From a virus: 64,000 nucleotides of DNA. Location: positions 1 to 64,000 of IMG/VR virus record IMGVR_UViG_3300027668_001405, one strand, 5' to 3'. Shown piece after piece: positions 1,957 to 61,774 of this stretch. The translations under genes and the position numbers were made by a program. How positions within the stretch are numbered: the first letter of the stretch is position 1; each line of letters starts with the position of its first letter. A model generated the notes under the pieces. The model was not told the DNA's origin and ran no database searches. It saw only the letters and a program-made list of their open reading frames with translations.

Positions 1957-2175
1957 ATGACTAAGACACTTATTCAAGACATTGCTAACCTAGAAGAAAG
2001 TATTATTCTACTCCAAGAAGGTGCTAGTGATGAGAAGCATATGGCCCTGGCTAACCTAGTGAGGATGCTGAGTGAGAAGAGAGAACAGTTAGAGCTGATA
2101 GCTACTACGTTTAAAACGGATATCGATACAGCAGACGGTATTCGCAGTACTATAATGGGCTTTAAGATTAAGTAG
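1957..2175 (+). CDS. hypothetical helical protein
   Basis: Start moved to ATG 1957 (MTKTLIQ...) because it lies after the promoter and an AAGGA SD. Confidence 0.7.
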   Translation: MTKTLIQDIANLEESIILLQEGASDEKHMALANLVRMLSEKREQLELIATTFKTDIDTADGIRSTIMGFKIK

Positions 2176-2509
2176 GAATAATCTTCATAGGATTAACCTG
2201 CTTATGTAAGTTACTAGATGTAGGTTTACTACACATCTTTTTACAAATACTTGGACAGTTAGGAGATTTATCTTCTAGCTGTTTTTTTAAGGTTAACCAT
2301 AATTTGCTGTTAATCACAGCATCCATTCCACCAAACAATAGTTGTAGATCTTTTATCTTTAGATCGTTATCGCTAGCCCACATTAAGAACTCATCCCAAT
2401 CCAATGTATTATTAACAAAGCAACAAGGTCTAACGTAACCGTCAGGGCCTATGAATACACTGTGACTTTCGTGTTGCAAACATCTAGGGTTTAGTTCTAT
2501 TTGTTCCAT
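2168..2509 (-). CDS. stand-alone SPASM/twitch Fe-S domain protein
   Basis: PRC...VFIGPDGYVRPCC...CPSICKKMC. Confidence 0.8.
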   Translation of the reverse strand: MEQIELNPRCLQHESHSVFIGPDGYVRPCCFVNNTLDWDEFLMWASDNDLKIKDLQLLFGGMDAVINSKLWLTLKKQLEDKSPNCPSICKKMCSKPTSSNLHKQVNPMKIIPT

Positions 2510-3147
2510 AACTCTAATTCTTTGGGGAATAGGTATTGACTAATGTCGTGCTGTTCCATGCTTCTTGGATATGCTCTCCACCTACTACTTTTCATTACTT
2601 CAAACCTATCAAAGCCAATCTCCAATGCTAACTCTTTGGCAGTTTTTGTTTGATGTGCATTGTATGGGAACTCTATCCATTTCCATATTGTTTTAGGTCT
2701 ACGATCCTTGGGCATACTAAGTATCTTACTCATAGCATATTCTATATTACTCCACTTGGAATGTTTACGATAGATGTGATTGGTATCTTCTAATCCATCT
2801 ACACTAAATGTCCAAGTCATCTTATGTATGTCTAGGTCAGTGTTGATTACATCCCATAACTCTTTCTTACCAAAACTACCATTAGTTTCTAGATGTACAC
2901 GCTTACCTAACCAAGCATAGAAATCTAATATCTGTAGTATATCTGGGTGGTAAAGCGGATCTCCGTAACAGCCAACGAACAGATAAGTCTTAAAGTCTGT
3001 GTTCTTTGCTATCCACTTTACATGATCCAACAACATATGTCCTGTGTTCCATTGTCCTTTAAGGTGCTTTTGATAATTTCGTGGACAACCTGGGCATCCC
3101 AGACTACAGACAGTTGTCAACTCAATTTCAATGTTATTATGGTTCAT
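2497..3147 (-). CDS. radical SAM enzyme (subfamily A, split from its SPASM domain)
   Basis: IELTTVCSLGCPGCPR (CxxxCxxC), GCYGDP, TNGS, FSVDGLEDTNHIYR. Confidence 0.9.
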   Translation of the reverse strand: MNHNNIEIELTTVCSLGCPGCPRNYQKHLKGQWNTGHMLLDHVKWIAKNTDFKTYLFVGCYGDPLYHPDILQILDFYAWLGKRVHLETNGSFGKKELWDVINTDLDIHKMTWTFSVDGLEDTNHIYRKHSKWSNIEYAMSKILSMPKDRRPKTIWKWIEFPYNAHQTKTAKELALEIGFDRFEVMKSSRWRAYPRSMEQHDISQYLFPKELELWNK

Positions 3148-3841
3148 TCATCTCCGCCCAAATTACTTTAAACGCTTTACATCCCAATTCAATTGTTGGG
3201 TGTGCAAAGATTTTTTTATCTCTAATAGGTTCTTGCCAATCTGATTCTTGTGTTGCTATTTTTGCACTTTCAGTTATATAATCCATATCAGTAAACGTTA
3301 CTCCATGTTGTTTAAATAACTTGCCGGCTTCTTCCCATATTTCTGGGCCACAACATCCAATCCAACCTCTGAACGCATATACATCAGCACCTAGCTTGGC
3401 CAGCATACACAATACACTTACTAGGTTACGGAAGTAATGGTCACCGCTAAAAGCCTCTTCGGTAAAACCTTTAAGTGATAAGCCTGCATCTTGCATATAG
3501 AACTCGTCGCGGCCAGTTAGATTGTTATGTATAAACTGTCCTAGAGGAAACTTATTCTTATTGTATGTACCAGTTATTTTACTCAAGTTAAGTTTAACTC
3601 TATCTTCCCACATTATTTCTTTGTGAGTTACTAGTGTTTGTCTATGGATTCCAGTAAACTGAACAATAACTGTTGATTTACTAATATCATGCAATAGGAA
3701 ATGATTAAGTATTCCACTTAATGGAAACCCATTACCACCTCCACTCATTTGAAGTCTTAGAGTATCTGCTGAATAGTTGAAATAAGGCATCCAGGATTCT
3801 CCGAGGCTACACCCACCTAATATTGTTGTTTCATAGTTCAT
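3137..3841 (-). CDS. SGNH-hydrolase/acyltransferase-like protein
   Basis: N-terminal LGGCSLG (GxS block), SGGGN, VIVQFTG and C-terminal HP. Confidence 0.5.
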   Translation of the reverse strand: MNYETTILGGCSLGESWMPYFNYSADTLRLQMSGGGNGFPLSGILNHFLLHDISKSTVIVQFTGIHRQTLVTHKEIMWEDRVKLNLSKITGTYNKNKFPLGQFIHNNLTGRDEFYMQDAGLSLKGFTEEAFSGDHYFRNLVSVLCMLAKLGADVYAFRGWIGCCGPEIWEEAGKLFKQHGVTFTDMDYITESAKIATQESDWQEPIRDKKIFAHPTIELGCKAFKVIWAEMNEP

Positions 3842-3910
3842 GTTAGTATTTATGCTTGCAAAATAGTTAAAACGTGTTATAATAAATAGTATTATACAAA
3901 AGGAGTTTAT

Positions 3911-4012
3911 ATGAGCAAAGCAATAGCATATGCCTTTGTAGGAATATTTACAATCACAACAGGTCTGTATTTCTACATGGACATGATATTAAGAAGTTAT
4001 TTTATAACATGA
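3911..4012 (+). CDS. 33-aa single-pass membrane peptide
   Basis: AGGAG SD; MSKAIAYAFVGIFTITTGLYFYMDMILRSYFIT; ATGA overlap with the next gene. Confidence 0.6.
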   Translation: MSKAIAYAFVGIFTITTGLYFYMDMILRSYFIT

Positions 4013-5517
4013 AACCTATTAAGATTTGGGGAATAACGACAGGGTCACATGATGCAAGCATTTGTGTTGTGGATCAAAGTCGTACAGGAAGTCTAGAGAT
4101 AGAGTTCGCGGCTCATGCTGAACGTAGCAGTCGCATTAAGAACGACAAGAACCTTAATAGAACACTAATCGAACAGGCACTAGAGTTTGGCAACCCTAGC
4201 GAGATAATACACTACGAACACGACTTACTAAAACGTACTAGACAGCTATGGGCTGGTCAGTACAGTACAGCGTGGAACAAGCCAAGTATTAAGAAGCAGT
4301 TGAAAGCAGTCTATCCAGAACTAGATTGCAAAATTAAGTATGCAAAGCATCATGCAAGTCATGCCGCTGGTGGATACTATACCAGTCAGTTTACAGATGC
4401 AACAGTATTGGTAATTGACAGTATTGGTGAATGGGAAACATTAAGTGTATGGAACGGAGAAGGAAGTAAACTTGAACGTGTGTACAGTCAGAAGTTCCCT
4501 AACAGTCTAGGCATATGGTATAGTGCAATGACACAACGTATAGGTCTTAAACCTAACGAAGATGAATACATATTAATGGGCTGGGCCGCATTAGGTGATC
4601 CCGAAAAGTATAAGATGAAGATATGGAACGACTTCTTCCATCCTATATCAGACAATGGCTTACCAATTGTAAAGCTAAAGAAGAACCTACATCGTGGATG
4701 CAAGGACTGGGCACCAGAGCTAAACAGCATACAAGACTATGCAGACTTAGCCGCAGGTACGCAGGCAGTATATGAATATGTATTCCGTAAACTAGTTAAC
4801 TGGTGCAAGAATAATACACCAAGCAAGAACTTAGTTATAATGGGAGGTTGTGCATTAAATTGTGTAGCCAACACTATAGCAAGACAACATTACAATGATG
4901 TATGGATAATGCCTAACCCAGGTGATGCAGGTAGTAGCTTAGGTGCTATCCTTGCAATCAAGAAGAGGCACATACATTTTAATAGTCCTTACTTAGGTTA
5001 TAGAATCTCAGGAAGTTATCCTGTTAACAAAGCATTAGAAGAACTTAAAATAAATAGAATGGTAGGAGTTGCTAATGGTCGTGCAGAGTTTGGACCCAGA
5101 GCATTAGGTAATAGAAGTTTGTTTGCTGACCCACGTGGAAATGATGTTAAGGACTTAGTCAATACAGTTAAACGTAGACAAGAGTTTAGACCATTTGCTC
5201 CAGTGATACTAGAAGAACATGCAAGTAGTTACTTTGATGGACCAACAGGACCTTATATGCAATACACAAGTGTATGCAGAGACCCAGAAGCATTTCCAGC
5301 AATTGCACACTTAGATAACACAAGTAGAGTACAGACTGTTAATCAGTTCCAACACCCTAAGTTACATGAATTGCTAACACGTTGGTACAAGGATACCGGT
5401 TGTCCAATGTTATTGAATACAAGTTTAAATATTAAAGGTGAGCCAATGGTAGACACTGAGTCAGATGCTCAGAGATGGCAACAAACATATGGAGTTAAGG
5501 TAATAACGCATGACTAA
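4009..5517 (+). CDS. O-carbamoyltransferase (NodU/CmcH/TobZ family)
   Basis: HDAS, HHASHA, GGCALNC, GRAEFGPRALGNRS, KRRQEFRPFAP, LLNTSLN. Confidence 0.92.
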   Translation: MKPIKIWGITTGSHDASICVVDQSRTGSLEIEFAAHAERSSRIKNDKNLNRTLIEQALEFGNPSEIIHYEHDLLKRTRQLWAGQYSTAWNKPSIKKQLKAVYPELDCKIKYAKHHASHAAGGYYTSQFTDATVLVIDSIGEWETLSVWNGEGSKLERVYSQKFPNSLGIWYSAMTQRIGLKPNEDEYILMGWAALGDPEKYKMKIWNDFFHPISDNGLPIVKLKKNLHRGCKDWAPELNSIQDYADLAAGTQAVYEYVFRKLVNWCKNNTPSKNLVIMGGCALNCVANTIARQHYNDVWIMPNPGDAGSSLGAILAIKKRHIHFNSPYLGYRISGSYPVNKALEELKINRMVGVANGRAEFGPRALGNRSLFADPRGNDVKDLVNTVKRRQEFRPFAPVILEEHASSYFDGPTGPYMQYTSVCRDPEAFPAIAHLDNTSRVQTVNQFQHPKLHELLTRWYKDTGCPMLLNTSLNIKGEPMVDTESDAQRWQQTYGVKVITHD

Positions 5518-6002: not shown

Positions 6003-6022
6003 ACGATTACGCAGAGGAACAC

Positions 6023-6526: not shown

Positions 6527-6552
6527 AAACGCAAGGTAAGTTAGAATAAGAC

Positions 6553-14838: not shown

Positions 14839-15348
14839 ATGAGTGAAAAAACAACAGTAGAAGTTGGCGGAGTAAAATTTACAGGCGGTAAATTATTCTT
14901 GGTCATTACACTGTTAAGTACTCTAGGTGGAATAGCATGGGGAGGCTTTGAATTCTATAATGACTATAGAGTTATGAAGGCTAAAATAGAACGCTATGTT
15001 GCACCAGACTTAAAAGGAATTAGATCGGAACTTGCAATCATTGATCAAAAGCTAGACGATGCACTTGAATACTCTAAGGATATCAAAAACGGATTACGTG
15101 ATGATATTGTTAGACTAGAGCGTATTGTTGATGCAGTTGAAGATGATGTAAACAAAACAGAAGATAAAACACGTGAACTAATAACATTAGCTGACCAACG
15201 TTTTGAAAACAAACGTGATCAGTTGTTAACAGATTACGAACAAAAAGCTGATAGTTTACGTACAAGTACTGATATAAAACTTAAAGAACTAGAAATTAGA
15301 CTTAACAAACGATTACAGAGAGCACTTGATAACCCATTAGCAAACTAA
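14839..15348 (+). CDS. membrane-anchored coiled-coil protein
   Basis: GGVKFTGGKLFLVITLLSTLGGIAWGGFEFY followed by coiled coil. Confidence 0.8.
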   Translation: MSEKTTVEVGGVKFTGGKLFLVITLLSTLGGIAWGGFEFYNDYRVMKAKIERYVAPDLKGIRSELAIIDQKLDDALEYSKDIKNGLRDDIVRLERIVDAVEDDVNKTEDKTRELITLADQRFENKRDQLLTDYEQKADSLRTSTDIKLKELEIRLNKRLQRALDNPLAN

Positions 15349-16502
15349 CCTTTAGTTTTAGCTAACCCACACTGTCTAGCACATAGCTCGACTTTATCAA
15401 AGTTACTCATAATCTTCTTAATAGCAACACCTTCGATAATCTCATCGTAGGTGTTGTTATATATACTCAACGATTTCTCATCTTCCTTTGTAATTCCAGC
15501 GTGATCAAAGTGTTCTTGCTGTCCAACTCTCATATAACAACAAGGTAAGAACAATCCTTCACTTGATATAAAGTTACTATGTCCTTCTATGTTTATGCAT
15601 TGTGGAGATACCTTCTCAGTATGTACTAATTCCTTTTTAAGTTGAGGTATCCTTTGAAACTTTCTATTAACGTTGATATTCGTTTTACCAAGTTCTTCTG
15701 TCTTAACATCATTAGCCTGAGCAAACTTCTTTACTACTTTGTCTGTTTCCATTTTAACATGTGCATTCTTCTCAGTATTTTCTATAATAGACTTAGATTT
15801 AAACACACTTGTTCTTGGAGTAACAGCTACACTTAGCTTAGGTTTATTAAGATGTTCCATGTTCCACACATATTCTTCTAGTTTAACCAAGTTGTCATCA
15901 AAGTCTGCTTTATTAGCTAGCTGTCCTTTTTCTGCTCTGTGTGTATGTACAATAACAAACTCTTGCATACCCATTTCATACGCTTTATCATATGCAGTTT
16001 TCATATCTTCAAACGTTTGATTGTATTTGAATACAATATACTTCCATCTAGCTCTACCACCGCCTTGTGCTATAATTCTAGCACCCATCTCTATACTTTC
16101 CCAGTCAGCATTGACTCTATATTGTGTAAAGTTATCAGGTGTGCCGTCTATGCTAAAAATAACACAGTCTTTCCATGTCATCATTTTAGCAAGTTCTTTC
16201 CAATCTGCTTCGGGTCTTCTGCTACCATTAGTATCAAAGTTAAATGATGCACCAGCTTCTTTAATAGCTTTTAATGTAGTTACTAGGTGTGGATGATATA
16301 ATCCATCGCCATATGCACCGCCTAGTTGGAATCGTTTGTATTCAGATGTTTTTAAGAACTCTAATAGTTTCTCATGATCAACGTGTCCATTATCCCATAC
16401 TCGTCGCATGTGGGCTTGGTATGTTCGTGGACAGTTAGGACATAGCAATACACATTTTGATGTGAGTTCTAGTTCTACCTTAAAAGACTTACTGAATTTC
16501 AT
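15345..16502 (-). CDS. radical SAM-SPASM enzyme (subfamily A, fused)
   Basis: LELTSKCVLLCPNCPR, GAYGDG, FSIDG, C-terminal PQC...FISSEGLFLPCC...CARQC. Confidence 0.9.
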   Translation of the reverse strand: MKFSKSFKVELELTSKCVLLCPNCPRTYQAHMRRVWDNGHVDHEKLLEFLKTSEYKRFQLGGAYGDGLYHPHLVTTLKAIKEAGASFNFDTNGSRRPEADWKELAKMMTWKDCVIFSIDGTPDNFTQYRVNADWESIEMGARIIAQGGGRARWKYIVFKYNQTFEDMKTAYDKAYEMGMQEFVIVHTHRAEKGQLANKADFDDNLVKLEEYVWNMEHLNKPKLSVAVTPRTSVFKSKSIIENTEKNAHVKMETDKVVKKFAQANDVKTEELGKTNINVNRKFQRIPQLKKELVHTEKVSPQCINIEGHSNFISSEGLFLPCCYMRVGQQEHFDHAGITKEDEKSLSIYNNTYDEIIEGVAIKKIMSNFDKVELCARQCGLAKTKG

Positions 16503-17254: not shown

Positions 17255-17959
17255 ATGTTAGATGTTTTTATGCTGTCTTTCGGAGAACCCGATGCAGATG
17301 ATAATTTTAAGATTTTACAACAAAAAGCTCCTCATGCTAAACGCATTGATGGGGTAGAAGGATTGCTTAACGCACATCAACGTGCCGCTGAAGAGTCACG
17401 CACACAATACTTTTATGTATGTGATGCAGATGCAATTATACAAGAAAACTTTGCATTTAAGTTTGAGCCAAGTGATAGGCGTGATGCTTATCCTGGTGTA
17501 CCCGAAACAGAATGTGTGTTTACATATCGTAGTCACAATCCTGTTAATGATTTAATATATGGATATGGTGGAATTAAACTGTTTCCAAAGCGTAACCTAT
17601 TAGAGGTAACAGAATTTAAAGTAGACATGACAACTAGTATTGGTGCAAAGTTTGTACCTAAGTTTGAGATTGCTAACACCACAGCATTTAATACAGATCC
17701 ATTTAACGCTTGGCGCAGTGGGTTTCGTGAATGTACTAAGCTAGCAAGTAATATCATTGATCATAATAAGCAAGTTGATGATGCATACCGACTAGAAGTT
17801 TGGTGTACACGTGGCGAGAACAGACGCTATGGTGAATATGCATTAGTTGGAGCACAACAAGGACGTGACTTTGGCACCCATTACAAAGGCAACACGGCAG
17901 CATTAAGTAGAATTAATGACTGGAAATGGCTAAGGGAGAAGTTTAATGAAGCTATCTGA
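17255..17959 (+). CDS. GT-A-like glycosyltransferase
   Basis: VCDADA (DxD), YGYGGIKLFP, FNTDPFNAWRSGFREC. Confidence 0.65.
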   Translation: MLDVFMLSFGEPDADDNFKILQQKAPHAKRIDGVEGLLNAHQRAAEESRTQYFYVCDADAIIQENFAFKFEPSDRRDAYPGVPETECVFTYRSHNPVNDLIYGYGGIKLFPKRNLLEVTEFKVDMTTSIGAKFVPKFEIANTTAFNTDPFNAWRSGFRECTKLASNIIDHNKQVDDAYRLEVWCTRGENRRYGEYALVGAQQGRDFGTHYKGNTAALSRINDWKWLREKFNEAI

Positions 17960-38297: not shown

Positions 38298-38617
38298 TTA
38301 GACCTAGATGTACAGAAAATGGAATGCCAATGTTTTTATCAGCAAGTAATATATTAAAGCCTTGTTGTTTTTTAAACACTACTAGGCAGTATAACTTTTT
38401 TAAAGAATGGGGCGAAGCAAGAGGATTAACAGTTGAAGCAGACTTAGATGCATCTAAGCATACAATGGAAACAATATTGTCTAGTCCTACTTGGCTAGCA
38501 TTGATTGAGAGTTTTAAACATCAAGGACAATCACCTAGTACATGTGAAAAACAGTGTGGTCCAGGATCGTACAAAAGCACAAGTGGAACTGCTAAACATA
38601 GCACTTTCAAAGAATAA
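38294..38617 (+). CDS. stand-alone SPASM/twitch domain protein
   Basis: Start 38294 (ATGA overlap): MIRPRC...LKPCC...TCEKQC. Confidence 0.8.
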   Translation: MIRPRCTENGMPMFLSASNILKPCCFLNTTRQYNFFKEWGEARGLTVEADLDASKHTMETILSSPTWLALIESFKHQGQSPSTCEKQCGPGSYKSTSGTAKHSTFKE

Positions 38618-39391: not shown

Positions 39392-39392
39392 C

Positions 39393-41132: not shown

Positions 41133-41524
41133 GTAAAATAACGGATTGGGCAGATGACTTGTCCATGCTAGAAGGCACAGAAAGACTAGTACATCTTATA
41201 GATTTAGCTAGGTTGCCTACAACATTGCCAGAAGCATTAAGAACTAAAGAGAATCTTATAGGCGGATGCATGTCTAAGATATGGGTTGATGTTGGTATAG
41301 TTGAAGAAAAGGTCAAAGTATATTATGATAGTGATGCAATGATTACAAAAGGTATTACACATGTAGTATGCGATTGCTTTTCAGATATACCAGTTGCAGA
41401 TTCAAAACAATTGAATAAAGCTAGCTTTGACAACTTAGGAGTAAAAGAACTTCTAACTTCTCAAAGACGGAATGGGCTAGGAAGTCTAATAGATACAATA
41501 ATACATAAGGTAAACAAACTATGA
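41129..41524 (+). CDS. sufE: SufE-like cysteine desulfuration protein
   Basis: IGGCMSKIWV, DSDAMITKG, LTSQRRNGL. Confidence 0.85.
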   Translation: MSKITDWADDLSMLEGTERLVHLIDLARLPTTLPEALRTKENLIGGCMSKIWVDVGIVEEKVKVYYDSDAMITKGITHVVCDCFSDIPVADSKQLNKASFDNLGVKELLTSQRRNGLGSLIDTIIHKVNKL

Positions 41525-42615
41525 ACGAAGGAAGTTATATTTTTACAAGCGAAAGTGTCAGTGATGGGCATCCAGATAAGGTAGCAGACCAAATCTCAGA
41601 TGTACTAGTTGACGCAGGACTAAAGAACGGTGATGAGACAACACGAGTTGCCGTAGAGACACTTGTAACCACTAACCATGTTACGGTAGCGGGTGAGGTA
41701 AAAAACTTCAATGTCAGTGACGATGATGTTAAAGAGTTAATTAAGAATAAAGTCAAAGAGATTGGCTACGAACAAGATGGATTCCATTGGGATAAACTAA
41801 AAATCTATAATGAGATTCATGCACAAAGTGGAGACATTGGTTTAGGTACTAATGACTTTGGAGCAGGAGATCAGGGAATGATGTTTGGCTATGCAAGTAA
41901 TGAGAACGAAGCATTTATGCCAGCACCTATTTACTTCTCGCATAAGATTCTACAAGAACTTAAATTTATGCGTTTAGATGGATATGAGTTTTTACTACCA
42001 GATGCTAAGTCACAAATTAGTGTGCAGTACGAAGGTGGTAAGCCTAAGCGTATTGATCAAATTGTAGTATCACATCAGCACAAGGACGGATTTGTTCATA
42101 GTGTTGTAGGTCCTGTTAGGAGTGCATGTGAAAAGGTATTAGGCGATTTAATTGACAAAAATACTGTATGGCATATTAACCCAACAGGCAACTTTGTTAT
42201 TGGTGGACCAGATGGAGACACTGGTGTAACAGGACGTAAGATTATCGTAGACACATATGGTGGATTTGCACCACATGGCGGTGGAGCATTTAGTGGAAAA
42301 GATCCTACTAAGGTTGATCGTTCAGCGGCTTACATGGCACGTTGGTTAGCAAAAAATGTAATAGCAGACGATATGGCAGATTGGTGTAATATCCAATTAA
42401 GCTATGCTATTGGCGTAAAGGAACCTACTAGCATTTATGTAGATTCTAATGGACACAACAGATCAATTCAGAACTTTATTAAGAACAATGTTGACCTTAC
42501 ACCAAAGGGAATCATTGATAAGTTTGATTTGTTTAACTTTAACAAGTACAGTGCGAATTGTACATACGGACACTTTGGTGATAAGGATGTACCGTGGGAA
42601 AAAATAGGATGGTAA
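41521..42615 (+). CDS. metK: S-adenosylmethionine synthetase
   Basis: ESVSDGHPDK, GAGDQG, GGGAFSGKD. Confidence 0.97.
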   Translation: MNEGSYIFTSESVSDGHPDKVADQISDVLVDAGLKNGDETTRVAVETLVTTNHVTVAGEVKNFNVSDDDVKELIKNKVKEIGYEQDGFHWDKLKIYNEIHAQSGDIGLGTNDFGAGDQGMMFGYASNENEAFMPAPIYFSHKILQELKFMRLDGYEFLLPDAKSQISVQYEGGKPKRIDQIVVSHQHKDGFVHSVVGPVRSACEKVLGDLIDKNTVWHINPTGNFVIGGPDGDTGVTGRKIIVDTYGGFAPHGGGAFSGKDPTKVDRSAAYMARWLAKNVIADDMADWCNIQLSYAIGVKEPTSIYVDSNGHNRSIQNFIKNNVDLTPKGIIDKFDLFNFNKYSANCTYGHFGDKDVPWEKIGW

Positions 42616-42943: not shown

Positions 42944-43498
42944 ATGAATAAAATAGGAATGAGCGTACCAAACACAACGTGGAAAACACGTGTGCGTGAT
43001 GATAGTATCAGTGGGGACAACCCATTTAAGTGGCAAGACCTAGCAAATGTAGATGTGTTTGCTCATAAGCGTGTATTAGTATTTTCACTTCCAGGTGCAT
43101 TTACACCAACATGCTCTACGATGCAGTTGCCAGGTTTTGAAGAAAATGCAGATGCATTTTATAGTGCAGGAATTGAAGACATCTATTGTATTAGTGTTAA
43201 TGATAGTTTCGTAATGAACCGTTGGGGACAAACAGTCGTTGAGGGTGGATTACAAAACGTTAAGCTACTACCAGATGGTAACGGAGACTTTACTGCAGGC
43301 ATGGATATGTTAGTTGACAAAACGCATATTGGCTTTGGTCAGCGTTCATGGCGTTATGCAATGGTTGTGGATAAAGGAATAATTACACATTGGTTTGAAG
43401 AGCCTGGTTTTAATCAAACTGGAACTGATTCAGATCCGTATGGTGAGACTTCACCTGAGAATGTTTTAAATGCAATAACGATTGACATGCATCAATAA
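42944..43498 (+). CDS. peroxiredoxin (Prx5-type)
   Basis: LPGAFTPTCS, VNDSFVM..W, DGNGDF. Confidence 0.92.
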   Translation: MNKIGMSVPNTTWKTRVRDDSISGDNPFKWQDLANVDVFAHKRVLVFSLPGAFTPTCSTMQLPGFEENADAFYSAGIEDIYCISVNDSFVMNRWGQTVVEGGLQNVKLLPDGNGDFTAGMDMLVDKTHIGFGQRSWRYAMVVDKGIITHWFEEPGFNQTGTDSDPYGETSPENVLNAITIDMHQ

Positions 43499-57155: not shown

Positions 57156-57167
57156 AGGATAATAATT

Positions 57168-58592
57168 ATGGCAGAAAACAAGTTACCCTCGGATACGTTT
57201 TGTATACTACCGTGGATACATTTAAGCACAAGACCAGACGGAAGTATGCGTGTGTGTTGTACAGCTAATGCAAGTGCAGTAGGAGCAACAAATGATAAAG
57301 TACATGGCGGTCGAGTTGGAATTGTAAAAACAGATGATGGTAAACCTGCTAACTTAAACAACAGTGATTTGAATAGTGCGTGGAACAATAGTTACATGCG
57401 TGGCGTTAGACAACAAATGATGGCTGGTGAACAACCACCTAGTTGTGTAAAATGTTATAAAGAAGAAGCGGCTGGACACAGGTCTAAAAGACAGTGGGAA
57501 ACAGACTATTGGATTAAAGACGGTATCGACGTTGAAGATTTAATAAGGGAAACTTACGAAGATGGAAGTACTGATTCTAAACTACGCTATATTGATATCC
57601 GTATGGGGACGAAATGCCAGTTGGGGTGCGTTATGTGTAGCCCACATGACTCTTCAGGCTGGGTAAAAGATTGGAACAAACTATATCCACAAATTACAAA
57701 TGAATCCTTAAAAGAAACTATGAATTGGGATGCTAAAGGTAAGACCTTTGGTGCAAACTATAACTGGCACAAAAACAACCCAACGTTTTGGGATCAGTTT
57801 TATGCACAGATTCCTTATATCAGACAACTATACTTTGCTGGTGGTGAATCAACAGTTATTGAAGAACATTATTCAATCCTATCTAAAGTTATTGAGATGG
57901 GTTACGCACATCAAATTGAAGTGCGTTATAACAGTAATGGTATTGAACTACCAGATCGTTTGCTAGAGCTATGGACACACTTTGAAAAGGTACGTTTCCA
58001 TTACAGTATTGACAGCATTGGTCCAATGAATGATTATATTCGTTATCCAAGTGAATGGTCACATCAGCTAGCAATGTTTGAACGCCTAGATCAAAAGACA
58101 AGTAACAACGTAGAAATTACAATTGCGTGTGCAGTTAATGCACTTAACATTCATTACATTCCAGACTTCCTTAAATGGAAACTTCAGGATAGCGGACTTA
58201 AGAAAACAAATATGTGGCCTTTTGGAGCAGGTGGTATTAACTATCACTTTGTATACTGGCCCGGACATTTGAATGTTAAGATATTGCCAGATGAATTCCT
58301 AGACAAAACAGAAGCCAAGTATGAAGAATTTATTCAATGGTGGAAAGAGAATTGGGAGCTAGGTGTTCCAAGTTGGCATAAGGGTAAAGTAGACTATCAG
58401 AAATGGGAAGATGCTAGTTATGGTATCAAACGTTTACGTGGTATGATTAGCTTTGCTCGTAGTGAAGATTGGACACGCCGACTACCCGAGTTTAGAGAGT
58501 ATATAAACAAGTTAGATGAATTGCGTGGAACAGACTTCCGTGCAACATTCCCAGACATGGCTTACTTGCTTGATGAACCGGATGACACCTGA
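57168..58592 (+). CDS. radical SAM enzyme with N-terminal SPASM/twitch domain (subfamily B)
   Basis: CILPWIH...RVCC, CVKC, DIRMGTKCQLGCVMC, AGGE. Confidence 0.92.
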   Translation: MAENKLPSDTFCILPWIHLSTRPDGSMRVCCTANASAVGATNDKVHGGRVGIVKTDDGKPANLNNSDLNSAWNNSYMRGVRQQMMAGEQPPSCVKCYKEEAAGHRSKRQWETDYWIKDGIDVEDLIRETYEDGSTDSKLRYIDIRMGTKCQLGCVMCSPHDSSGWVKDWNKLYPQITNESLKETMNWDAKGKTFGANYNWHKNNPTFWDQFYAQIPYIRQLYFAGGESTVIEEHYSILSKVIEMGYAHQIEVRYNSNGIELPDRLLELWTHFEKVRFHYSIDSIGPMNDYIRYPSEWSHQLAMFERLDQKTSNNVEITIACAVNALNIHYIPDFLKWKLQDSGLKKTNMWPFGAGGINYHFVYWPGHLNVKILPDEFLDKTEAKYEEFIQWWKENWELGVPSWHKGKVDYQKWEDASYGIKRLRGMISFARSEDWTRRLPEFREYINKLDELRGTDFRATFPDMAYLLDEPDDT

Positions 58593-58788
58593 GGTTCGTA
58601 AAGAGGCCCATCGACGTTTTTGGATGATCAAGGGCCACTTAGCCTGTAAGGATTGGGACGATGATGCATTATACAAAATGCACGAAAGTTACTTGAAGCG
58701 TTTATGGGGTAATGAAGAAGCATACCTTTGGGAAGAAGGTTTTGAAGAAGCATACTTTAAGTTAACAAATGAACAACCATCAAACTAA
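58573..58788 (+). CDS. 71-aa aromatic/acidic small protein between radical SAM genes
   Basis: FWMIKGHL...LWEEGFEEAY; overlaps both neighbours. Confidence 0.65.
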   Translation: MNRMTPEVRKEAHRRFWMIKGHLACKDWDDDALYKMHESYLKRLWGNEEAYLWEEGFEEAYFKLTNEQPSN

Positions 58789-59980
58789 TACAGACACACA
58801 TTGCACACTGCCTTGGAGTGGTGCGGCAGTTGATGCTGGTGGCAGGGTTGTACCTTGTTGTAGATGGATGGGACCACATGGTGACTTAGACAATGCTCCT
58901 AAAATAGCTAATGGATTAGAAAACGCAAGGAACAGTAAGTTCTTTGAAACAGTACGACAAAGTATGTTAGATGGAAAACGTATTAATGGATGTAAGAAAT
59001 GTTGGGAAGAAGAAGATTTCTTTGGTCCTGAACATCAACAGCGTTGGTTACGTTTACAGCACAATCATAACATACAGGCACTGTCAGTTAATGGAGTAGC
59101 AAACATGACTACCACTGCTCCTACAAAGCTACGGTACCTAGAAACAGGTATAAGCAACCTATGTAACTTTGCTTGTGTAATGTGCAACTCTGCAACCAGC
59201 AGTACGATACACAATATAACAGTCAAAGGCAAAATGCCTAAGAGCTTCCATCAAAACAATAGCGTAATAGATTCAGACTTATCAGAGCTACAATATTTGA
59301 AATTTGTAGGTGGTGAGCCCATGATGGAACGCAAGCATGATGAATTATTAGAAAAGGTTGTTGCATTAAACAATAACCCAACATCACTAGAATTAGAGTA
59401 CCATACTAATGCAAGTATATTTCCAAGCGAGCGTGTAACTACTGCATGGAAGAAAGTAAAATCAGTAAGGATTATATTTAGTTTAGACGGTGTGTATGAG
59501 AAATCTAAACTACAGCGTCCAGGTAGATACAAATGGCAAGATGTAGAAGATACAGTACATAAATATGTACAGCTAGCAGACAAAGTTAATATTATATTCT
59601 CAAGCAATACAGTGTTGACAGCATTGAATGTTGGGCAAGTAATAGATATACTTGAATGGTTATACTCGAGAATAGGACACAAACAACTTGGGTGGTTTAA
59701 TGTACATAAACTGTTTAATGAAAGGTTTAAGTATATAGACCTACGTAATATAAGTCAAGAGAAGAAAACTATTATAAGAAAAGAGTTAACAGATTGGGCG
59801 GCAACAGGTCACCCAGCACTAGACACTCCGCTGAAATCAGTGTATAATGAGACTATAGAAGCACTAGATACACCACCTAGTGGTACATTGACTCTTAGTA
59901 GAGAGTTAATATTAGAAAAGCATTTCCAAAATGATATATGGAAGTACTTCAAAGAAGAATTAAAGGACCTAGAAATATAA
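58769..59980 (+). CDS. radical SAM enzyme, subfamily B
   Basis: CTLPW...VPCC, CKKC, SNLCNFACVMC, VGGEP. Confidence 0.92.
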   Translation: MNNHQTNTDTHCTLPWSGAAVDAGGRVVPCCRWMGPHGDLDNAPKIANGLENARNSKFFETVRQSMLDGKRINGCKKCWEEEDFFGPEHQQRWLRLQHNHNIQALSVNGVANMTTTAPTKLRYLETGISNLCNFACVMCNSATSSTIHNITVKGKMPKSFHQNNSVIDSDLSELQYLKFVGGEPMMERKHDELLEKVVALNNNPTSLELEYHTNASIFPSERVTTAWKKVKSVRIIFSLDGVYEKSKLQRPGRYKWQDVEDTVHKYVQLADKVNIIFSSNTVLTALNVGQVIDILEWLYSRIGHKQLGWFNVHKLFNERFKYIDLRNISQEKKTIIRKELTDWAATGHPALDTPLKSVYNETIEALDTPPSGTLTLSRELILEKHFQNDIWKYFKEELKDLEI

Positions 59981-60516
59981 TGAAATACATTTTAGTAGCT
60001 CTAAAAGCAGAATTGCCAGAGCATAATTTAGACCCTACATCATACAAAGTATGGTATACTGGTGTTGGTAAAGTAAATGCATCTATATGGGCAACACTTG
60101 CATGCATACAAAAAGACTGTGAAGCAGTTATTAACTACGGAACAGCAGGTGCATTTAATAGTGAACTAGCAGAACAGTTACTACACATTGGTACAGTAAA
60201 GCAACGTGACATGGATACAAGGCCACAAGCAGAACTAGGTGTTACTCCGTTTGAAGACAGTGGATTTGAAGGTGACATTAAACTTAGTAATAGTGCATAT
60301 ACATGTAGCACTGGTGATAACTTTGTAACAGAGGTTCCAGAATTAGAAAGTGATTGTGTTGATATGGAAGCATATGCAATTGCTAAAGTATGTAAGCACT
60401 TCCAAAAGAATTGCATAGTTTACAAATATATTAGTGACCTAGCAGATTCAGATGCTGCGGCAACGTGGGTAGAGAATCAACACAAAGGAGCAGATGCTTT
60501 TATAGCAATGACCTAG
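59980..60516 (+). CDS. MTA/SAH (5'-deoxyadenosine) nucleosidase-like protein
   Basis: Start 59980; TGVGKVNA, NYGTAG, STGDNFV, DMEAYA, KYISD. Confidence 0.82.
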   Translation: MKYILVALKAELPEHNLDPTSYKVWYTGVGKVNASIWATLACIQKDCEAVINYGTAGAFNSELAEQLLHIGTVKQRDMDTRPQAELGVTPFEDSGFEGDIKLSNSAYTCSTGDNFVTEVPELESDCVDMEAYAIAKVCKHFQKNCIVYKYISDLADSDAAATWVENQHKGADAFIAMT

Positions 60517-60517
60517 T

Positions 60518-61774
60518 ATGAGTGGATTTTGTTCATTACCTTTTGTACAGTACAGCACATATAACGGAGGCCGTTATAGACTTTGTTGTATGGCTAAAGA
60601 ACCAACTACACTTGTTAACCAAGAAGAGTTGGGTATTAATGGTACATGGAATCACGACTATATTAAAGATGTAAGACGTAGAATGACTGCCGGTGAGAAG
60701 TTATCCGAGTGCAGTGAATGCCATCACTTAGAACGTAATGGAATAATGAGTTCACGTCAATGGGAAAACAAAGTATGGGCAGATGTAATTGATGGAATCG
60801 TAGCAGACGCAAGTGCTAATGATTGGGAAGTTGATCAGCCATTACAGTTTGACTTTAGATTAGGAAACCTATGTAACCTACAGTGTCAGATGTGTAACAA
60901 AGAAGCATCACACTTGGTAAGCGTAGAACGTGCGGCAATGATTAAACGTGGACTAGGAGCTGACCACCCAGATTGGGAAGGACAGATTGCAAGCAAGAAA
61001 GAAGCACTTCTGCAACCTGGAATTGATTGGGTAGACTTTAAAGCCATGTTACCATATGCTCGTAAGATAAAACTAATAGGTGGCGAACCTACAGTAGCAA
61101 CAGATATGTTTAAGCTACTAGATATTGCAACAGAAAGCGGACACGCAGAACACATTGAATTAAGCTTCTACACAAATATTACAAACATGCAAGACAAGTG
61201 GCTAGCTCAGTTAGCTAAGTTTGAGAAAGTCATTGTTAACTGTTCACTAGAAGGAATGGGCGACATGAATGACTATTTGCGTCCACCTAGTAAATGGGCT
61301 AGTGTGTGGAAGAACTTTGATAAATTAGTACAGTTTGCTGATACTAAACCGGGTAAGCGTATTAAGGTACGGGTTACTACAGTAAACCAAATGACTAATG
61401 CATTGCACATAGTTCCTTTTTGGAAGTTTATGCATGATTACCAGATGACTAGTAATAGAGGCATTGGAATGAGTACCAATCAGCTAGTGGAGCCTGCTTA
61501 CTACAGCATGGCACATGCACCTGAATGGTTGAAAGAACAACAACGTGAACAGATTTTGGAATTTCTTAAGTCCATTGACAACAGCCCTCACTTTGAGCAA
61601 TATGAAGAACCACTCATGGAAGTGGTTAACTTTAGTCTTGATAGTGAGCACAAGTTTGATGCTAACATCATGCAACAATATGTCAAGGTCACCGAAAACT
61701 ACGACAGATTCAGAGGACACATGGTTACCAAAGTGTCTCCCGAATTTGAACGAATTAAAAAAGACTCCGAGTGA
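60518..61774 (+). CDS. radical SAM enzyme, subfamily B
   Basis: CSLPF...RLCC, CSEC, DFRLGNLCNLQCQMC, IGGEP. Confidence 0.92.
   Translation: MSGFCSLPFVQYSTYNGGRYRLCCMAKEPTTLVNQEELGINGTWNHDYIKDVRRRMTAGEKLSECSECHHLERNGIMSSRQWENKVWADVIDGIVADASANDWEVDQPLQFDFRLGNLCNLQCQMCNKEASHLVSVERAAMIKRGLGADHPDWEGQIASKKEALLQPGIDWVDFKAMLPYARKIKLIGGEPTVATDMFKLLDIATESGHAEHIELSFYTNITNMQDKWLAQLAKFEKVIVNCSLEGMGDMNDYLRPPSKWASVWKNFDKLVQFADTKPGKRIKVRVTTVNQMTNALHIVPFWKFMHDYQMTSNRGIGMSTNQLVEPAYYSMAHAPEWLKEQQREQILEFLKSIDNSPHFEQYEEPLMEVVNFSLDSEHKFDANIMQQYVKVTENYDRFRGHMVTKVSPEFERIKKDSE

What the first reader, a model, noticed from the sequence alone, without database searches (positions are those of the whole stretch)
2168..61774. 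Seven radical SAM/SPASM enzymes of unknown function in two subfamilies
Seen: subfamily A (E-L/I-T-x2-CxxxCxxC-x-R, G-x-Y/L-GD, FS-V/I-DG, C-terminal PCC domain) at 2497, 15345, 21061 and 37638. Subfamily B (N-terminal C-x-LP-W/F...CC plus CxxxCxMC) at 57168, 58769 and 60518. QueE is an eighth radical SAM. Such an expansion costs Fe-S clusters and SAM, and the copies are too divergent to be recent duplicates. Inference: each modifies a different position on a common substrate class (sugars, peptides or bases).
Basis: partly seen in the sequence, partly recalled or inferred. Interest (0 to 1): 0.82.

Follow-up and report, generated by a model that had tools for sequence, protein, structure and literature searches.

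The report
Radical SAM gene swarm in phage
The seven radical SAM genes are real, conserved and probably active. They belong to a set of at least 23 such genes in a widespread ocean jumbo phage that also encodes its own SAM synthetase and iron-sulfur assembly genes, and what the pathway makes is still unknown.

Summary
All seven genes carry CxxxCxxC and match radical SAM models.

**Subfamily B** (57168, 58769, 60518) passes the curated cut-off of NCBIfam NF033640, the "N-terminal twitch" radical SAM family, whose function I found described nowhere.

**Subfamily A** (2497, 15345, 21061, 37638) has the same 5-Cys twitch-like module at the C-terminus. In two copies that module is a separate, translationally coupled ORF (2168-2509, 38294-38617), and the split is conserved in relatives.

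**Wider context:**
- The window is the first 64 kb of a 138-kb fragment (CheckV 40% complete) of a roughly 330-kb marine phage.
- The fragment holds 23 radical SAM genes, about 19% of its DNA. Related phage contigs hold 9-25 matches each.
- dN/dS is 0.06-0.09 for two B genes.
- The phage also encodes MetK, an MTA/SAH-type nucleosidase, a peroxiredoxin and Fe-S assembly proteins.
- Bdellovibrionia genomes carry homologous clusters, one about 30 kb long, with one-to-one counterparts of many paralogs.

**Best reading:** non-redundant steps of one shared pathway that tailors a small, probably sugar- or aminocyclitol-like molecule. Peptide and DNA substrates are not excluded.

**Precedents:** Campylobacter phage CP220 (11 radical SAM genes) and a Tara T4-like viral genome (12).

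Other first-stage notes on overlapping windows of this same contig flagged the same cluster.

The parts
2497..3147 (-). Subfamily A copy 1, radical SAM core only (216 aa), split form
   Evidence: CxxxCxxC at residue 14. Pfam Radical_SAM 37.2 bits. 44-46% identical to the two other split copies, 37638 and 79942.
2168..2509 (-). Stand-alone twitch-like Cys domain ORF (113 aa), partner of copy 1
   Evidence: Its own ATG overlaps the end of the core ORF by 13 nt. Carries the C...PCC...Cx3C pattern. Pfam SPASM 20.9 bits, just under the cut-off.
15345..16502 (-). Subfamily A copy 2, fused core plus C-terminal twitch-like domain (385 aa)
   Evidence: Pfam Radical_SAM 29.5 bits, SPASM 21.1 bits. AF2 model pLDDT 72.5 with a disordered linker at residues 229-299. 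Fold matches SuiB, SkfB, PqqE and BlsE at Z 18-20. Homologues at 38-68% identity in metagenomes, but no orthologue in five related phage fragments.
21061..22170 (+). Subfamily A copy 3, fused (369 aa), a core gene of the lineage
   Evidence: CxxxCxxC. Orthologues at 75-82% identity in 4 of 5 related phage records. A 38-43% counterpart lies beside the 57168 and 83875 counterparts in Bdellovibrionia.
37638..38297 (+). Subfamily A copy 4, radical SAM core only (219 aa), split form
   Evidence: Pfam Radical_SAM 45.5 bits. The split and the local gene order are conserved at 57-59% identity in relatives G001 and G004. A Bdellovibrionia counterpart is 43% identical.
38294..38617 (+). Stand-alone twitch-like Cys domain ORF (107 aa), partner of copy 4
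   Evidence: ATGA stop/start overlap with the core ORF. Five-Cys pattern. A profile of this module matches the N-terminal domain of subfamily B (hhalign probability 93.8%, E 1.7e-7).
57168..58592 (+). Subfamily B copy 1 (474 aa), N-terminal twitch radical SAM
   Evidence: NF033640 418.7 bits against a cut-off of 170. Orthologues at 81-91% identity in all related loci. dN/dS 0.06-0.09. Bdellovibrionia orthologues at 57-62% identity.
58769..59980 (+). Subfamily B copy 2 (403 aa), variable member
   Evidence: NF033640 212.7 bits. Present at only 31-53% identity, or absent, in related loci. dN/dS about 0.17-0.22.
60518..61774 (+). Subfamily B copy 3 (418 aa)
   Evidence: NF033640 294 bits. 271 database proteins match at E<=1e-5, and the 120 listed are 80-100% identical. 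AF2 model pLDDT 91.4. Core fold matches BlsE, anSME, viperin, CteB and SkfB at Z 13.5-13.9. dN/dS 0.06-0.08.
59938..60516 (+). MTA/SAH-type nucleosidase (PNP_UDP_1), lying between two B genes
   Evidence: Pfam PF01048 57.1 bits. NCBIfam 'nucleosidase' E 7e-24 and MTA/SAH nucleosidase E 1e-18, both below their cut-offs. Present at this position in all related loci.
41521..42615 (+). Phage-encoded methionine adenosyltransferase (MetK, SAM synthetase)
   Evidence: TIGR01034 420.8 bits against a cut-off of 309.4. Conserved downstream of split copy 4 and the QueE-like gene in G001 and G004.
39897..40793 (+).
   Evidence: N-terminal FYSVQGEG motif. QueE models match residues 2-36 and 131-264 separately, at 34-45 bits, far below cut-offs of 200-300. 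No Pfam hit at E<0.01.
61811..63019 (+). Pentein-fold amidinotransferase-like protein (a second one starts at 63958 and runs past the window end)
   Evidence: Its C-terminus, and all of 63958-65025, match CP220 gp086, which is annotated as pentein / possible glycine amidinotransferase. The 63958 gene has a 45% counterpart in the Bdellovibrionia mega-cluster.
17255..17959 (+). Uncharacterised 234-aa protein that travels with these radical SAM genes
   Evidence: Counterparts at 41-45% identity, plus a paralogue, sit next to the 57168 orthologue in L032 and L033. In related loci L023-L027 and L029 it lies between the 59938 and 60518 orthologues. It has a conserved DGDN motif. The glycosyltransferase reading rests only on weak leads.
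38636..39391 (+). Short nucleotide-sugar dehydrogenase-like protein directly after split copy 4
   Evidence: TIGR03026 116.8 bits, below its cut-off of 189.8, covering model positions 74-295 of 413. The short form is conserved in G001 and G004.
42944..43498 (+). Peroxiredoxin next to MetK
   Evidence: Pfam Redoxin 77.4 bits.
4009..5517 (+). NodU/CmcH-type carbamoyltransferase near A copy 1
   Evidence: phrog_1601 E 2e-97. A 49% homologue lies 2 kb from the only N_Twi radical SAM of Ralstonia phage RsoM2USA.
44520..45248 (+). Phosphomannomutase-like protein
   Evidence: Pfam PMM 81.3 bits. In related loci L023-L027 and L029 its orthologue lies inside the B cluster.

Best explanation
The seven genes are working radical SAM enzymes of the SPASM/twitch clade. 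They are the window's share of a set of at least 23 radical SAM genes that is conserved across a cosmopolitan marine jumbo phage lineage with genomes of about 330 kb.

**How each enzyme should work (inferred from the family, not tested).** Each binds a [4Fe-4S] cluster through CxxxCxxC and cleaves SAM to a 5'-deoxyadenosyl radical. That radical abstracts a hydrogen from the substrate. A 5-Cys twitch-like module holds one auxiliary cluster. The module is C-terminal in subfamily A, a separate polypeptide in the split A copies, and N-terminal in subfamily B.

**How the set works together (inferred from comparative genomics).** The paralogs are not redundant. Each catalyses its own step in one shared multi-step pathway. 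The pathway also uses amidinotransferases, a PLP aminotransferase, 2-oxoglutarate oxygenase-like proteins and a carbamoyltransferase. A homologous pathway exists as chromosomal clusters in Bdellovibrionia.

**Supply functions.** The phage provisions the pathway itself with MetK for SAM and cysteine desulfurase, Nfu, an A-type carrier and SufT for clusters. It also encodes a peroxiredoxin and an MTA/SAH-type nucleosidase. The nucleosidase is inferred to clear the inhibitory by-product 5'-deoxyadenosine.

**Most likely substrate (weakest step).** A small soluble scaffold resembling a carbohydrate, aminocyclitol or nucleoside sugar, tailored in the way BtrN, DesII or BlsE tailor theirs. The final product and its target (DNA, virion, cell envelope or a free metabolite) are unknown.
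For: **Real and functional**
- Motifs and family scores.
- Confident radical SAM fold models.
- Orthologues of 60518 at 70-96% identity in hundreds of marine proteins and 27 viral contigs.
- dN/dS 0.06-0.09.
- Near-identical DNA in at least 16 marine metagenome runs.

**Lineage-wide expansion**
- 23 genes in this contig.
- 9-25 matches in each of five related records.

**Twitch module**
- The BtrN twitch region (residues 164-237) aligns to residues 5-75 of the B profile at E 3e-6.
- The N-terminal module of B and the C-terminal or stand-alone module of A are homologous.

**One pathway, non-redundant steps**
- A Bdellovibrionia cluster holds counterparts of 57168 (61%), 21061 (43%), 83875 (64%) and 17255 (45%) side by side.
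- A 30-kb Bdellovibrionia mega-cluster holds 17 CxxxCxxC genes. It has counterparts at 36-50% identity of at least 13 phage genes. These include the amidinotransferase, the aminotransferase, the hydroxylase-like genes and a split A pair. The local order 78103-79281-82228-82587 is kept.
- These identities exceed those between phage paralogs, which are 23-33% for B.
- Tandem fusions of two or three B units are common.

**Self-provisioning**
- MetK, nucleosidase, peroxiredoxin and Fe-S assembly proteins.

**Small-molecule or sugar leaning**
- Every gene of the bacterial mega-cluster is predicted soluble. It has no glycan-export genes and no room for precursor peptides.
- No leader-peptide-binding (RRE/PqqD-type) domain was hit in any copy.
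- The auxiliary module has a single-cluster Cys pattern, as in the small-molecule enzymes BtrN and MoaA (family knowledge).
- Sugar genes lie in the window: an NDP-sugar dehydrogenase-like gene right after split copy 4, an epimerase/dehydratase, a GT-B, a PMM and a carbamoyltransferase.
- The CP220 module joins A-type radical SAM genes to an amidinotransferase and two nucleotide-sugar transferases.
Against: - No enzyme activity, substrate or product has been observed.
- Fold and sequence searches do not discriminate. The best solved matches include the peptide maturases TigE, SkfB, SuiB, CteB and anSME. These tie with the sugar, nucleoside and nucleotide enzymes BlsE, DesII, viperin and MoaA.
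- The Asp/Asn-hydroxylase-like oxygenases would also fit a peptide or protein substrate.
- The 17255 family is called glycosyltransferase-like only on weak leads.
- The sugar genes of the window are mostly not adjacent to the B cluster, and the bacterial mega-cluster has no recognised sugar-nucleotide genes.
- The nucleosidase could be a pathway enzyme rather than a clean-up enzyme. It also gives weak hits to futalosine hydrolase and HpnG.
- Presence in RNA libraries does not prove transcription.
Confidence: 0.45

Rival explanations
1. The enzymes are peptide or protein maturases, similar to RiPP (ribosomal peptide) enzymes. They would install crosslinks, epimerisations or other radical modifications on a peptide or on phage or host proteins. 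The hydroxylase-like and amidinotransferase-like enzymes would add further residue modifications.
For: - The nearest solved relatives by sequence profile are the RiPP maturases TigE (E 4e-13) and SkfB (E 2e-12).
- The A model matches SuiB, SkfB and PqqE best, at Z 18.4-19.7.
- Asp/Asn beta-hydroxylase-family proteins lie in both the phage and the bacterial clusters.
- Three unexplained soluble paralogs of 413-460 aa in the bacterial cluster could be scaffolds or substrates.
Against: - No RRE/PqqD-type leader-binding domain was hit in any copy.
- No Cys/Ser/Thr-rich small ORF lies next to the genes. The only small ORF between B genes (58516-58788) has no such composition.
- Intergenic gaps in the bacterial mega-cluster are 150 nt or less.
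- No protease or exporter lies inside the cluster.
- The auxiliary domain has 5 Cys, not the two-cluster SPASM motif usual in peptide maturases.
- The structural matches tie with small-molecule enzymes.
Confidence: 0.2
2. The enzymes build or tailor a hypermodified DNA base or nucleotide. One candidate is a decorated 7-deazaguanine or a glycosylated base. The modification would protect the phage genome from host nucleases.
For: - A QueE-like gene, GTP cyclohydrolase I, a phosphoribosyltransferase, a GT-B and an epimerase lie in the window. Split copy 4 sits in a conserved block with the QueE-like gene and MetK.
- CP220 has a QueD-like gene about 6 kb upstream of its radical SAM module.
- Radical SAM and PLP enzyme genes occur in the thymidine-hypermodification clusters of phages M6 and SP10 (PMC5889632).
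- Several copies give weak viperin-family hits.
Against: - No TGT/DpdA-type or thymidylate-synthase-type gene was found in the 138-kb fragment with Pfam models. The fragment is only about 40% of the genome.
- Homologous clusters sit in Bdellovibrionia chromosomes. There, no flanking gene matched a DNA-modification family among those scanned. No flanking gene had a phage replication counterpart either.
- More than 20 radical steps is far beyond any known base-modification pathway.
Confidence: 0.2
3. The copies are functionally independent. They would be a collection of unrelated radical SAM activities, such as cofactor repair, host takeover or anti-defence, that happen to sit in one genome rather than form one pathway.
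For: - The four A copies of the window are scattered at 2.5, 15, 21 and 38 kb with different neighbours.
- 15345 and 58769 are variable among relatives.
- Pairwise identity between paralogs is low.
Against: - Counterparts of dispersed phage genes (57168, 21061, 83875, 17255) are adjacent in bacteria.
- The bacterial mega-cluster mirrors the phage mega-cluster.
- Fused double and triple forms occur.
- Synteny is conserved among phages.
Confidence: 0.1
4. The genes are decaying relics or assembly artefacts, and the split copies are frameshifted pseudogenes.
For: Two of the four A copies in the window are in two ORFs, and 21061 and 57168 fall just under the Pfam cut-off.
Against: - The second ORFs start with their own ATG overlapping the upstream stop.
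- The same split is kept at 57-59% amino-acid identity in two relatives and also occurs in a bacterial cluster.
- All catalytic Cys are intact.
- dN/dS is far below 1.
- The same DNA appears in many independent runs.
Confidence: 0.03

Closest known systems
NCBIfam NF033640 (N_Twi_rSAM, twitch domain-containing radical SAM protein)
   Same: The three B genes pass its curated cut-off over the full model length. So do 12 more genes in the rest of the contig. The order of twitch-like Cys domain then radical SAM core is the same.
   Different: The family is a curated sequence family. I found no assigned reaction for it in the held literature. A-type copies match only its core region, below the cut-off.
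Twitch radical SAM enzymes that act on small molecules (BtrN, SpeY, MoaA, BlsE, DesII)
   Same: - The Cys pattern of the auxiliary module (C...CC...CxxC) is single-cluster.
- The BtrN twitch region aligns to the B N-terminal domain.
- Core folds match at Z 12-18.
- Accessory genes (amidinotransferase, aminotransferase, carbamoyltransferase, NDP-sugar enzymes) recall aminoglycoside and nucleoside-antibiotic pathways.
   Different: - Sequence identity is only 13-18%, and no curated equivalog cut-off is met.
- The module is at the N-terminus in B, or on a separate chain in split A.
- Known pathways use one to three such enzymes, not more than 20.
Radical SAM module of Campylobacter phages CP220/CPt10 (11 and 12 radical SAM genes; PMC2853527)
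   Same: - A large virulent phage with many radical SAM genes.
- Its gp080, gp083 and gp084 are homologous to A-type copies. Its pentein amidinotransferase gp086 is homologous to 63958 and 61811.
- The function is unknown there too.
   Different: - No N-terminal-twitch (B) homologue was found at E<1e-5 in the phage collection, which includes CP220, nor at E<1e-4 in the CP220 module itself.
- CP220 has half as many copies and a different host and habitat.
- No MetK or Fe-S set was examined there.
T4-like environmental viral genome TARA_ERS488813_N000010 (Nishimura et al. 2017, PMC5332604)
   Same: A marine T4-like genome reported with 12 radical SAM genes plus Fe-S related genes (an A-type carrier, glutaredoxin, PaaD). 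It is possibly the same broad lineage.
   Different: The paper only counted the genes. Subfamilies, split forms, bacterial counterparts and SAM supply were not described there. I did not compare the sequences directly.
SPASM-domain peptide maturases (anSME, PqqE, SuiB, CteB, TigE)
   Same: The overall layout of core plus C-terminal Fe-S domain in fused A copies, and the top structural matches.
   Different: The seven-Cys, two-cluster SPASM motif is absent, there is no leader-peptide recognition domain, and no precursor gene was found.

Membership tests
Radical SAM superfamily (PF04055) | CxxxCxxC motif for the SAM-binding [4Fe-4S] cluster | tested here: met
   Present once in each of the seven ORFs and invariant in alignments A1 and A2.
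Radical SAM superfamily (PF04055) | Pfam model score at or above the gathering cut-off (29.5 bits) | tested here: met
   Met by five of seven (29.5-45.5 bits). 21061 (22.1) and 57168 (28.3) fall just below. 57168 passes NF033640, which includes the core. 21061 has no model above a cut-off; its core motifs align with the A family.
Radical SAM superfamily (PF04055) | Partial TIM-barrel core fold | tested here: met
   The AF2 models of 60518 (pLDDT 91.4) and 15345 (pLDDT 72.5) align to many solved radical SAM enzymes at Z 12-20.
Radical SAM superfamily (PF04055) | Reductive cleavage of SAM to 5'-deoxyadenosine | not testable with these tools
   Needs anaerobic reconstitution and an assay.
NF033640 N_Twi_rSAM | Whole-protein score above the curated cut-off (170 bits) over the full model | tested here: met
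   57168 scores 418.7, 58769 scores 212.7 and 60518 scores 294.0 bits, over model positions 1-397, 2-360 and 3-396.
NF033640 N_Twi_rSAM | Twitch-like Cys domain N-terminal to the core | tested here: met
   Conserved C5, C23/C24, C65 and C68 come before the CxxxCxxC at 119-126. BtrN residues 164-237 align to profile positions 5-75. Pfam SPASM hits residues 12-97 and 12-79.
NF033640 N_Twi_rSAM (applied to subfamily A) | Score above the cut-off | tested here: not met
   A copies score 35.5-49.5 bits, over the core region only. They are a sister group, not members.
SPASM domain (PF13186 / seven-Cys motif) | Seven-Cys motif that binds two auxiliary clusters | tested here: not met
   Only five conserved Cys are present in A (C302, C321, C322, C374, C378) and in B (C5, C23, C24, C65, C68).
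SPASM domain (PF13186 / seven-Cys motif) | Pfam score at or above 21.5 bits | tested here: inconclusive
   57168 scores 22.2 and 58769 scores 24.3, which pass. 15345 (21.1) and the 2168 ORF (20.9) fall just below. 21061, 60518 and the 38294 ORF give no hit.
Characterised equivalogs (MoaA, PqqE, anSME, viperin, NirJ, mycofactocin maturase and others) | Score above the curated equivalog cut-off | tested here: not met
   All such hits score 15-58 bits against cut-offs of 130-850.
QueE (7-carboxy-7-deazaguanine synthase), for 39897-40793 | Score above the curated cut-off and a contiguous match | tested here: not met
   The best hit is 44.5 bits against a cut-off of 260. The match is split into residues 2-36 and 131-264. 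QueE-like remains a reasonable description.
MetK (TIGR01034), for 41521-42615 | Score above the curated cut-off over the full length | tested here: met
   420.8 bits against 309.4, residues 7-362 on model positions 1-367.

The most novel reading that the evidence does not exclude
Abundant ocean jumbo phages carry a self-provisioned radical pathway of more than 20 steps. They supply their own SAM synthetase, nucleosidase and Fe-S assembly genes. The pathway makes an undescribed metabolite or macromolecular decoration, and it is shared gene for gene with chromosomal mega-clusters of Bdellovibrionia. The same gene family also shows natural fused, split and order-swapped arrangements of the auxiliary-cluster domain. 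That would record how the N-terminal-twitch architecture arose.
Probability: 0.35. Interest if true: 0.85.

Novelty: new variant of a known kind. Interest (0 to 1): 0.66.

Why it matters
- Radical SAM enzymes are oxygen-sensitive and costly to make. Yet a phage lineage found in many surface-ocean metagenomes gives about a fifth of a 138-kb stretch to them, and it brings its own SAM and Fe-S supply.
- That implies a large, unknown piece of virus-directed chemistry operating at ocean scale.
- The NF033640 family has thousands of members and no reaction that I could find.
- This phage and the homologous Bdellovibrionia clusters give compact, comparable gene sets for heterologous expression.
- The split and permuted forms are natural test cases for how auxiliary-cluster domains dock onto the radical SAM core.

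Tried and rejected
- **Complex prediction** on the split pair (37638-38297 with 38294-38617): no verdict, score 0.02.
- **The search for related loci** with the divergent alignment A1 failed because no stretch was conserved enough.
- **Megablast** of 24 kb of the window against the phage collection: no match.
- **tblastn** of one B and one A copy against 50,697 phage records: four records each, all under 30% identity.
- **Pfam, PHROG and NCBIfam** gave nothing at the thresholds used for many neighbours: 3137, 16576, 17255, 17946, 20407, 36880, 55778, 56451, 63067 and 25106. So the first-stage labels 'sulfotransferase-like', '2OG oxygenase', 'KdoO-like' and 'TGT-fold' for these genes could not be confirmed.
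- **PDB sequence searches** found nothing for the 17255 family or for the three unknown paralogs of the bacterial cluster.
- **The protein atlas** gave only a sub-threshold GT2 lead for 17255 (0.87).
- **No Thymidylat_synt or TGT Pfam match** in the contig.
- **The phage nucleosidase** was not found in four Bdellovibrionia genomes with this query.
- **RNA-library contigs** cover most of 55778-63945, but this does not prove transcription. Uncovered stretches mean nothing.
- **No inverted repeats** flank the inverted gene 63067-63945.
- **Literature searches** for the family name, for marine or jumbo phage radical SAM expansions and for Bdellovibrio clusters found no functional study.
- **Programmed frameshifting** as the cause of the split copies was rejected because each second ORF has its own ATG at the junction.

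Full report
**What the window is**

The window is the first 64 kb of a single 137,797-bp IMG/VR virus record. The record is linear, and CheckV estimates it as 40% complete. That implies a genome of roughly 330-340 kb. Close homologues of window genes sit on contigs of 302-336 kb, which fits. GC content is 36-40% throughout, and nearly all genes in the window are on the + strand. The contig encodes a large family-B DNA polymerase (phrog_262, E 2e-196), CobS-like ATPase and partner genes, and many auxiliary metabolic genes. No cultured phage matches at the nucleotide level.

**Checking the observation**

All seven ORFs exist as described, and each has one CxxxCxxC motif. Pfam Radical_SAM is hit by all seven. 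Five are at or above the gathering score, and 21061 and 57168 are just under.

*Subfamily B* (57168, 58769, 60518) passes the curated cut-off of NCBIfam NF033640, 'twitch domain-containing radical SAM protein', at 418.7, 212.7 and 294.0 bits against 170.

*Subfamily A* (2497, 15345, 21061, 37638) does not pass it. Its members share the motifs G-x-[YLW]-GD, TNGS and FS[IV]DG, and a C-terminal C...PCC...Cx3C module. No copy reaches the cut-off of any characterised equivalog such as MoaA, PqqE, anSME, viperin or NirJ.

**Three corrections to the observation**

1. Two of the four A copies are split. The core ORFs 2497-3147 and 37638-38297 end where a second ORF begins with its own ATG. There is a 13-nt overlap at 2509 and an ATGA overlap at 38294. 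The second ORFs, of 113 and 107 aa, carry the PCC module. A third split copy lies outside the window at 79942/80609. The three split cores are 44-48% identical to each other, so the split is old and was then duplicated. Relatives G001 and G004 keep the same split at 57-59% identity. They also keep the same downstream genes. This rules out sequencing error, a pseudogene or a programmed frameshift.
2. The Cys-rich module has five conserved Cys in both subfamilies, not the seven of SPASM. A profile of the B N-terminal module aligns to the twitch region of BtrN at E 3e-6. It also aligns to the A C-terminal or stand-alone module, with hhalign probability 93.8% and E 1.7e-7. The two subfamilies therefore use the same auxiliary-cluster module in different positions.
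3. The QueE-like gene is at 39897-40793. It has the N-terminal QGEG motif, but it matches QueE models only in two pieces far below their cut-offs, and its Cys spacing is unusual.

**Scale of the expansion**

- The whole contig has 23 radical SAM genes. Fifteen are NF033640 members and six are A-type. Two belong to a third, core-only type at 79281 and 83875.
- Together with the stand-alone modules they occupy about 26.6 kb, or 19% of the contig.
- Twenty-seven related IMG/VR loci were found.
- Five related records, each 30-52% complete, hold 9-25 matches each.
- Gene order around 55-72 kb is conserved. 57168, the nucleosidase gene 59938 and 60518 are present in all of these loci. 58769 is variable.
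- 21061 has orthologues at 75-82% identity in four of five relatives. 15345 has none in these fragments.
- dN/dS is 0.06-0.09 for 57168 and 60518 and about 0.2 for 58769. Synonymous divergence is near saturation, so these values are rough.
- Near-identical DNA occurs in at least 16 marine metagenome runs from many studies.
- Contigs from two metatranscriptome studies cover most of the B cluster. This is compatible with expression but does not prove it.
- The B-type family is large. 8,644 cluster representatives match at E<=1e-30. These include many proteins of 770-1,466 aa that match the profile in two to four separate stretches, which I read as tandem fusions.

**Structure**

The AF2 model of 60518 is confident (pLDDT 91.4). 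Its core matches BlsE, anSME, viperin, CteB and SkfB at Z 13.5-13.9, with DesII, MoaA and others close behind. The model of 15345 (pLDDT 72.5) has a disordered linker exactly where the split copies are split. It matches SuiB, SkfB, PqqE, BlsE, anSME, DesII and MoaA at Z 17-20 across core and C-terminal domain. These results place both subfamilies in the SPASM/twitch clade. They cannot separate peptide substrates from small-molecule substrates.

**The phage's own supply functions**

The phage encodes functions that a heavy radical SAM load needs:
- A full-length MetK at 41521-42615 (420.8 bits against a cut-off of 309.4).
- An MTA/SAH-type nucleosidase at 59938-60516, between two B genes.
- A peroxiredoxin next to MetK.
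- Outside the window, an A-type Fe-S carrier, a class-V cysteine desulfurase, an Nfu domain protein and a SufT/DUF59 protein.

From my own knowledge of the field, 5'-deoxyadenosine inhibits radical SAM enzymes and MTA/SAH nucleosidase removes it. The phage nucleosidase also gives weak hits to futalosine hydrolase and HpnG. Those enzymes remove adenine after radical adenosylation, so a role inside the pathway is possible.

**Context that bears on the substrate**

- In the window: a NodU/CmcH-type carbamoyltransferase and a short NDP-sugar-dehydrogenase-like gene directly after split copy 4. There are also a GT-B, an NAD-dependent epimerase/dehydratase, GTP cyclohydrolase I and a phosphoribosyltransferase, and a phosphomannomutase-like gene.
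- In and beside the B cluster: two pentein-fold amidinotransferase homologues at 61811 and 63958. There are also a PLP aminotransferase, an Asp/Asn-hydroxylase-family protein and a nitroreductase-family protein.
- Campylobacter phage CP220 is known to carry 11 radical SAM genes (PMC2853527). Its module has five radical SAM genes, a pentein amidinotransferase and two nucleotide-sugar transferases. Three of its radical SAM genes and its amidinotransferase are homologous to genes here.
- Ralstonia phage RsoM2USA has one B-type gene 2 kb from a 49% homologue of the carbamoyltransferase.

**The most informative result: bacterial counterparts**

Five Bdellovibrionia genome loci encode orthologues of 57168 at 57-62% identity.

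In four of the five, that gene lies next to counterparts of 21061 (38-43%) and of the third-type gene 83875 (62-64%). Two or three of them also hold counterparts of the uncharacterised gene 17255 (41-45%). In the phage these genes are dispersed. In loci L023-L027 and L029 the 17255 orthologue sits inside the B cluster.

The four Bdellovibrionia genomes searched hold 4, 10, 20 and 24 NF033640 matches. One has a roughly 30-kb mega-cluster with these features:
- It holds 17 CxxxCxxC genes.
- It has best-hit counterparts at 36-50% identity of phage genes 68703, 78103, 79281, 82228, 82587, 132686, 80928, 73704 (twice), 69805 and 75588.
- It also has counterparts of the amidinotransferase 63958, the aminotransferase 67318 and a split A pair.
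- The order 78103-79281-82228-82587 is partly kept.

These identities exceed those between phage paralogs. So the paralogs diverged before the phage and bacterial versions separated, and each has been kept separately. That is the signature of distinct steps in one pathway.

All proteins of the bacterial cluster are predicted soluble. There is no flippase, polymerase or exporter inside it. The intergenic gaps are too short for precursor-peptide genes.

In that cluster the twitch ORF lies upstream of the A-type core, in the same frame, separated by a single stop codon. In the phage the order is core then twitch.

**Interpretation**

Shown:
- The genes are real, conserved radical SAM genes of two related architectures.
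- They are part of a lineage-wide expansion.
- The phage carries SAM and Fe-S supply genes.
- A homologous multi-gene cluster exists in bacteria.

Inferred with good support:
- The enzymes are active during infection.
- They act as non-redundant steps of one pathway.

Inferred weakly: the substrate is a small sugar-, aminocyclitol- or nucleoside-sugar-like molecule. This rests on the single-cluster twitch module and the accessory enzyme set. It also rests on the lack of leader-recognition domains and precursor genes, and on the all-soluble bacterial cluster.

A peptide or protein substrate and a DNA-base substrate remain live rivals, at about 0.2 each. The direction of transfer between phage and Bdellovibrionia is not established. 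Nor is it established whether Bdellovibrionia are the hosts.

**Comparison with what is known**

- Radical SAM-rich phages have been reported. CP220 and CPt10 have 11 and 12 copies, and a Tara T4-like viral genome has 12 copies plus Fe-S genes (PMC5332604).
- NF033640 is a curated family. I found no functional study of it or of these clusters in the held literature.
- New here, as far as I could check, are the following:
  - the size of the set
  - the phage-encoded MetK and nucleosidase alongside it
  - the conserved split radical SAM/twitch enzymes
  - the homology of the A and B auxiliary modules
  - the gene-for-gene bacterial counterpart
- I therefore rate this as a new variant of a known kind, with moderately high interest.
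- Other first-stage notes on overlapping windows of this same contig had flagged the cluster, the N-terminal auxiliary domain and the Fe-S set. I tested those points as stated above.

Noticed in passing
window:41521-42615 (+): A full-length phage-encoded SAM synthetase (MetK, 420.8 bits against a cut-off of 309.4), followed by a peroxiredoxin at 42944-43498.
   Followed up: partly
window:39897-40793 (+): The QueE-like protein has an insertion of about 50 residues between the second and third cluster Cys (C-x3-C-x50-C-D-T). It matches QueE models only as two separate pieces and has no Pfam hit at E<0.01.
   Followed up: partly
window:63067-63945 (+): This 292-aa gene is inverted here compared with the 22 related phage loci that hold it, where it lies on the strand opposite to the cluster. 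No flanking inverted repeats were found.
   Followed up: partly
L043:14476-15585 (-) (Bdellovibrionia genome G006, C1:772475-773584): A stand-alone twitch ORF and an A-type radical SAM core lie in the same reading frame, separated by one stop codon, with the twitch first. That is the reverse of the phage order. It looks like an intermediate between the C-terminal-twitch and N-terminal-twitch architectures.
   Followed up: partly
window:38636-39391 (+): The nucleotide-sugar dehydrogenase-like protein is only 251 aa and lacks the C-terminal nucleotide-sugar-binding part of the model. The short form is conserved in two relatives. It is followed by a glycine-zipper membrane protein at 39357-39884.
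   Followed up: partly
window:58516-58788 (+): A small ORF (90 aa from the first ATG) bridges the gap between B copies 1 and 2. It is acidic and aromatic-rich, has few Cys, and does not look like a typical precursor peptide. Its conservation was not checked.
   Followed up: no
window:51438-52610 and 52985-54163 (+): An AAA ATPase (phrog_1297) and a partner gene that PHROGs labels 'HNH endonuclease' (phrog_1314). They look like the CobS/CobT-type pair common in marine phages, so the PHROG label is probably misleading. Both are conserved upstream of the B cluster in relatives.
   Followed up: no
window:8893-10407 (+): A 504-aa protein with about 11 predicted transmembrane segments and no PHROG match. 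It could be a transporter or a polymerase-type membrane protein.
   Followed up: no
G000 contig end, about 137600-137797 (outside the window): The contig ends in 12-nt tandem repeats (GCTGGATCATTT and GCAGGATCTGTT types). This may be why the assembly stopped there.
   Followed up: no
G001:C1:19460-22159 and database proteins P0206-P0233: Two adjacent N-terminal-twitch radical SAM units lie in one 916-aa open frame in a related phage. Database proteins of 770-1,466 aa match the B profile in two to four stretches, which I read as tandem fusions.
   Followed up: partly
L032:11635-12519 (-): An IS1-type transposase is inserted in the small Bdellovibrionia radical SAM cluster in one genome and absent in a near-identical one (L034).
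   Followed up: no
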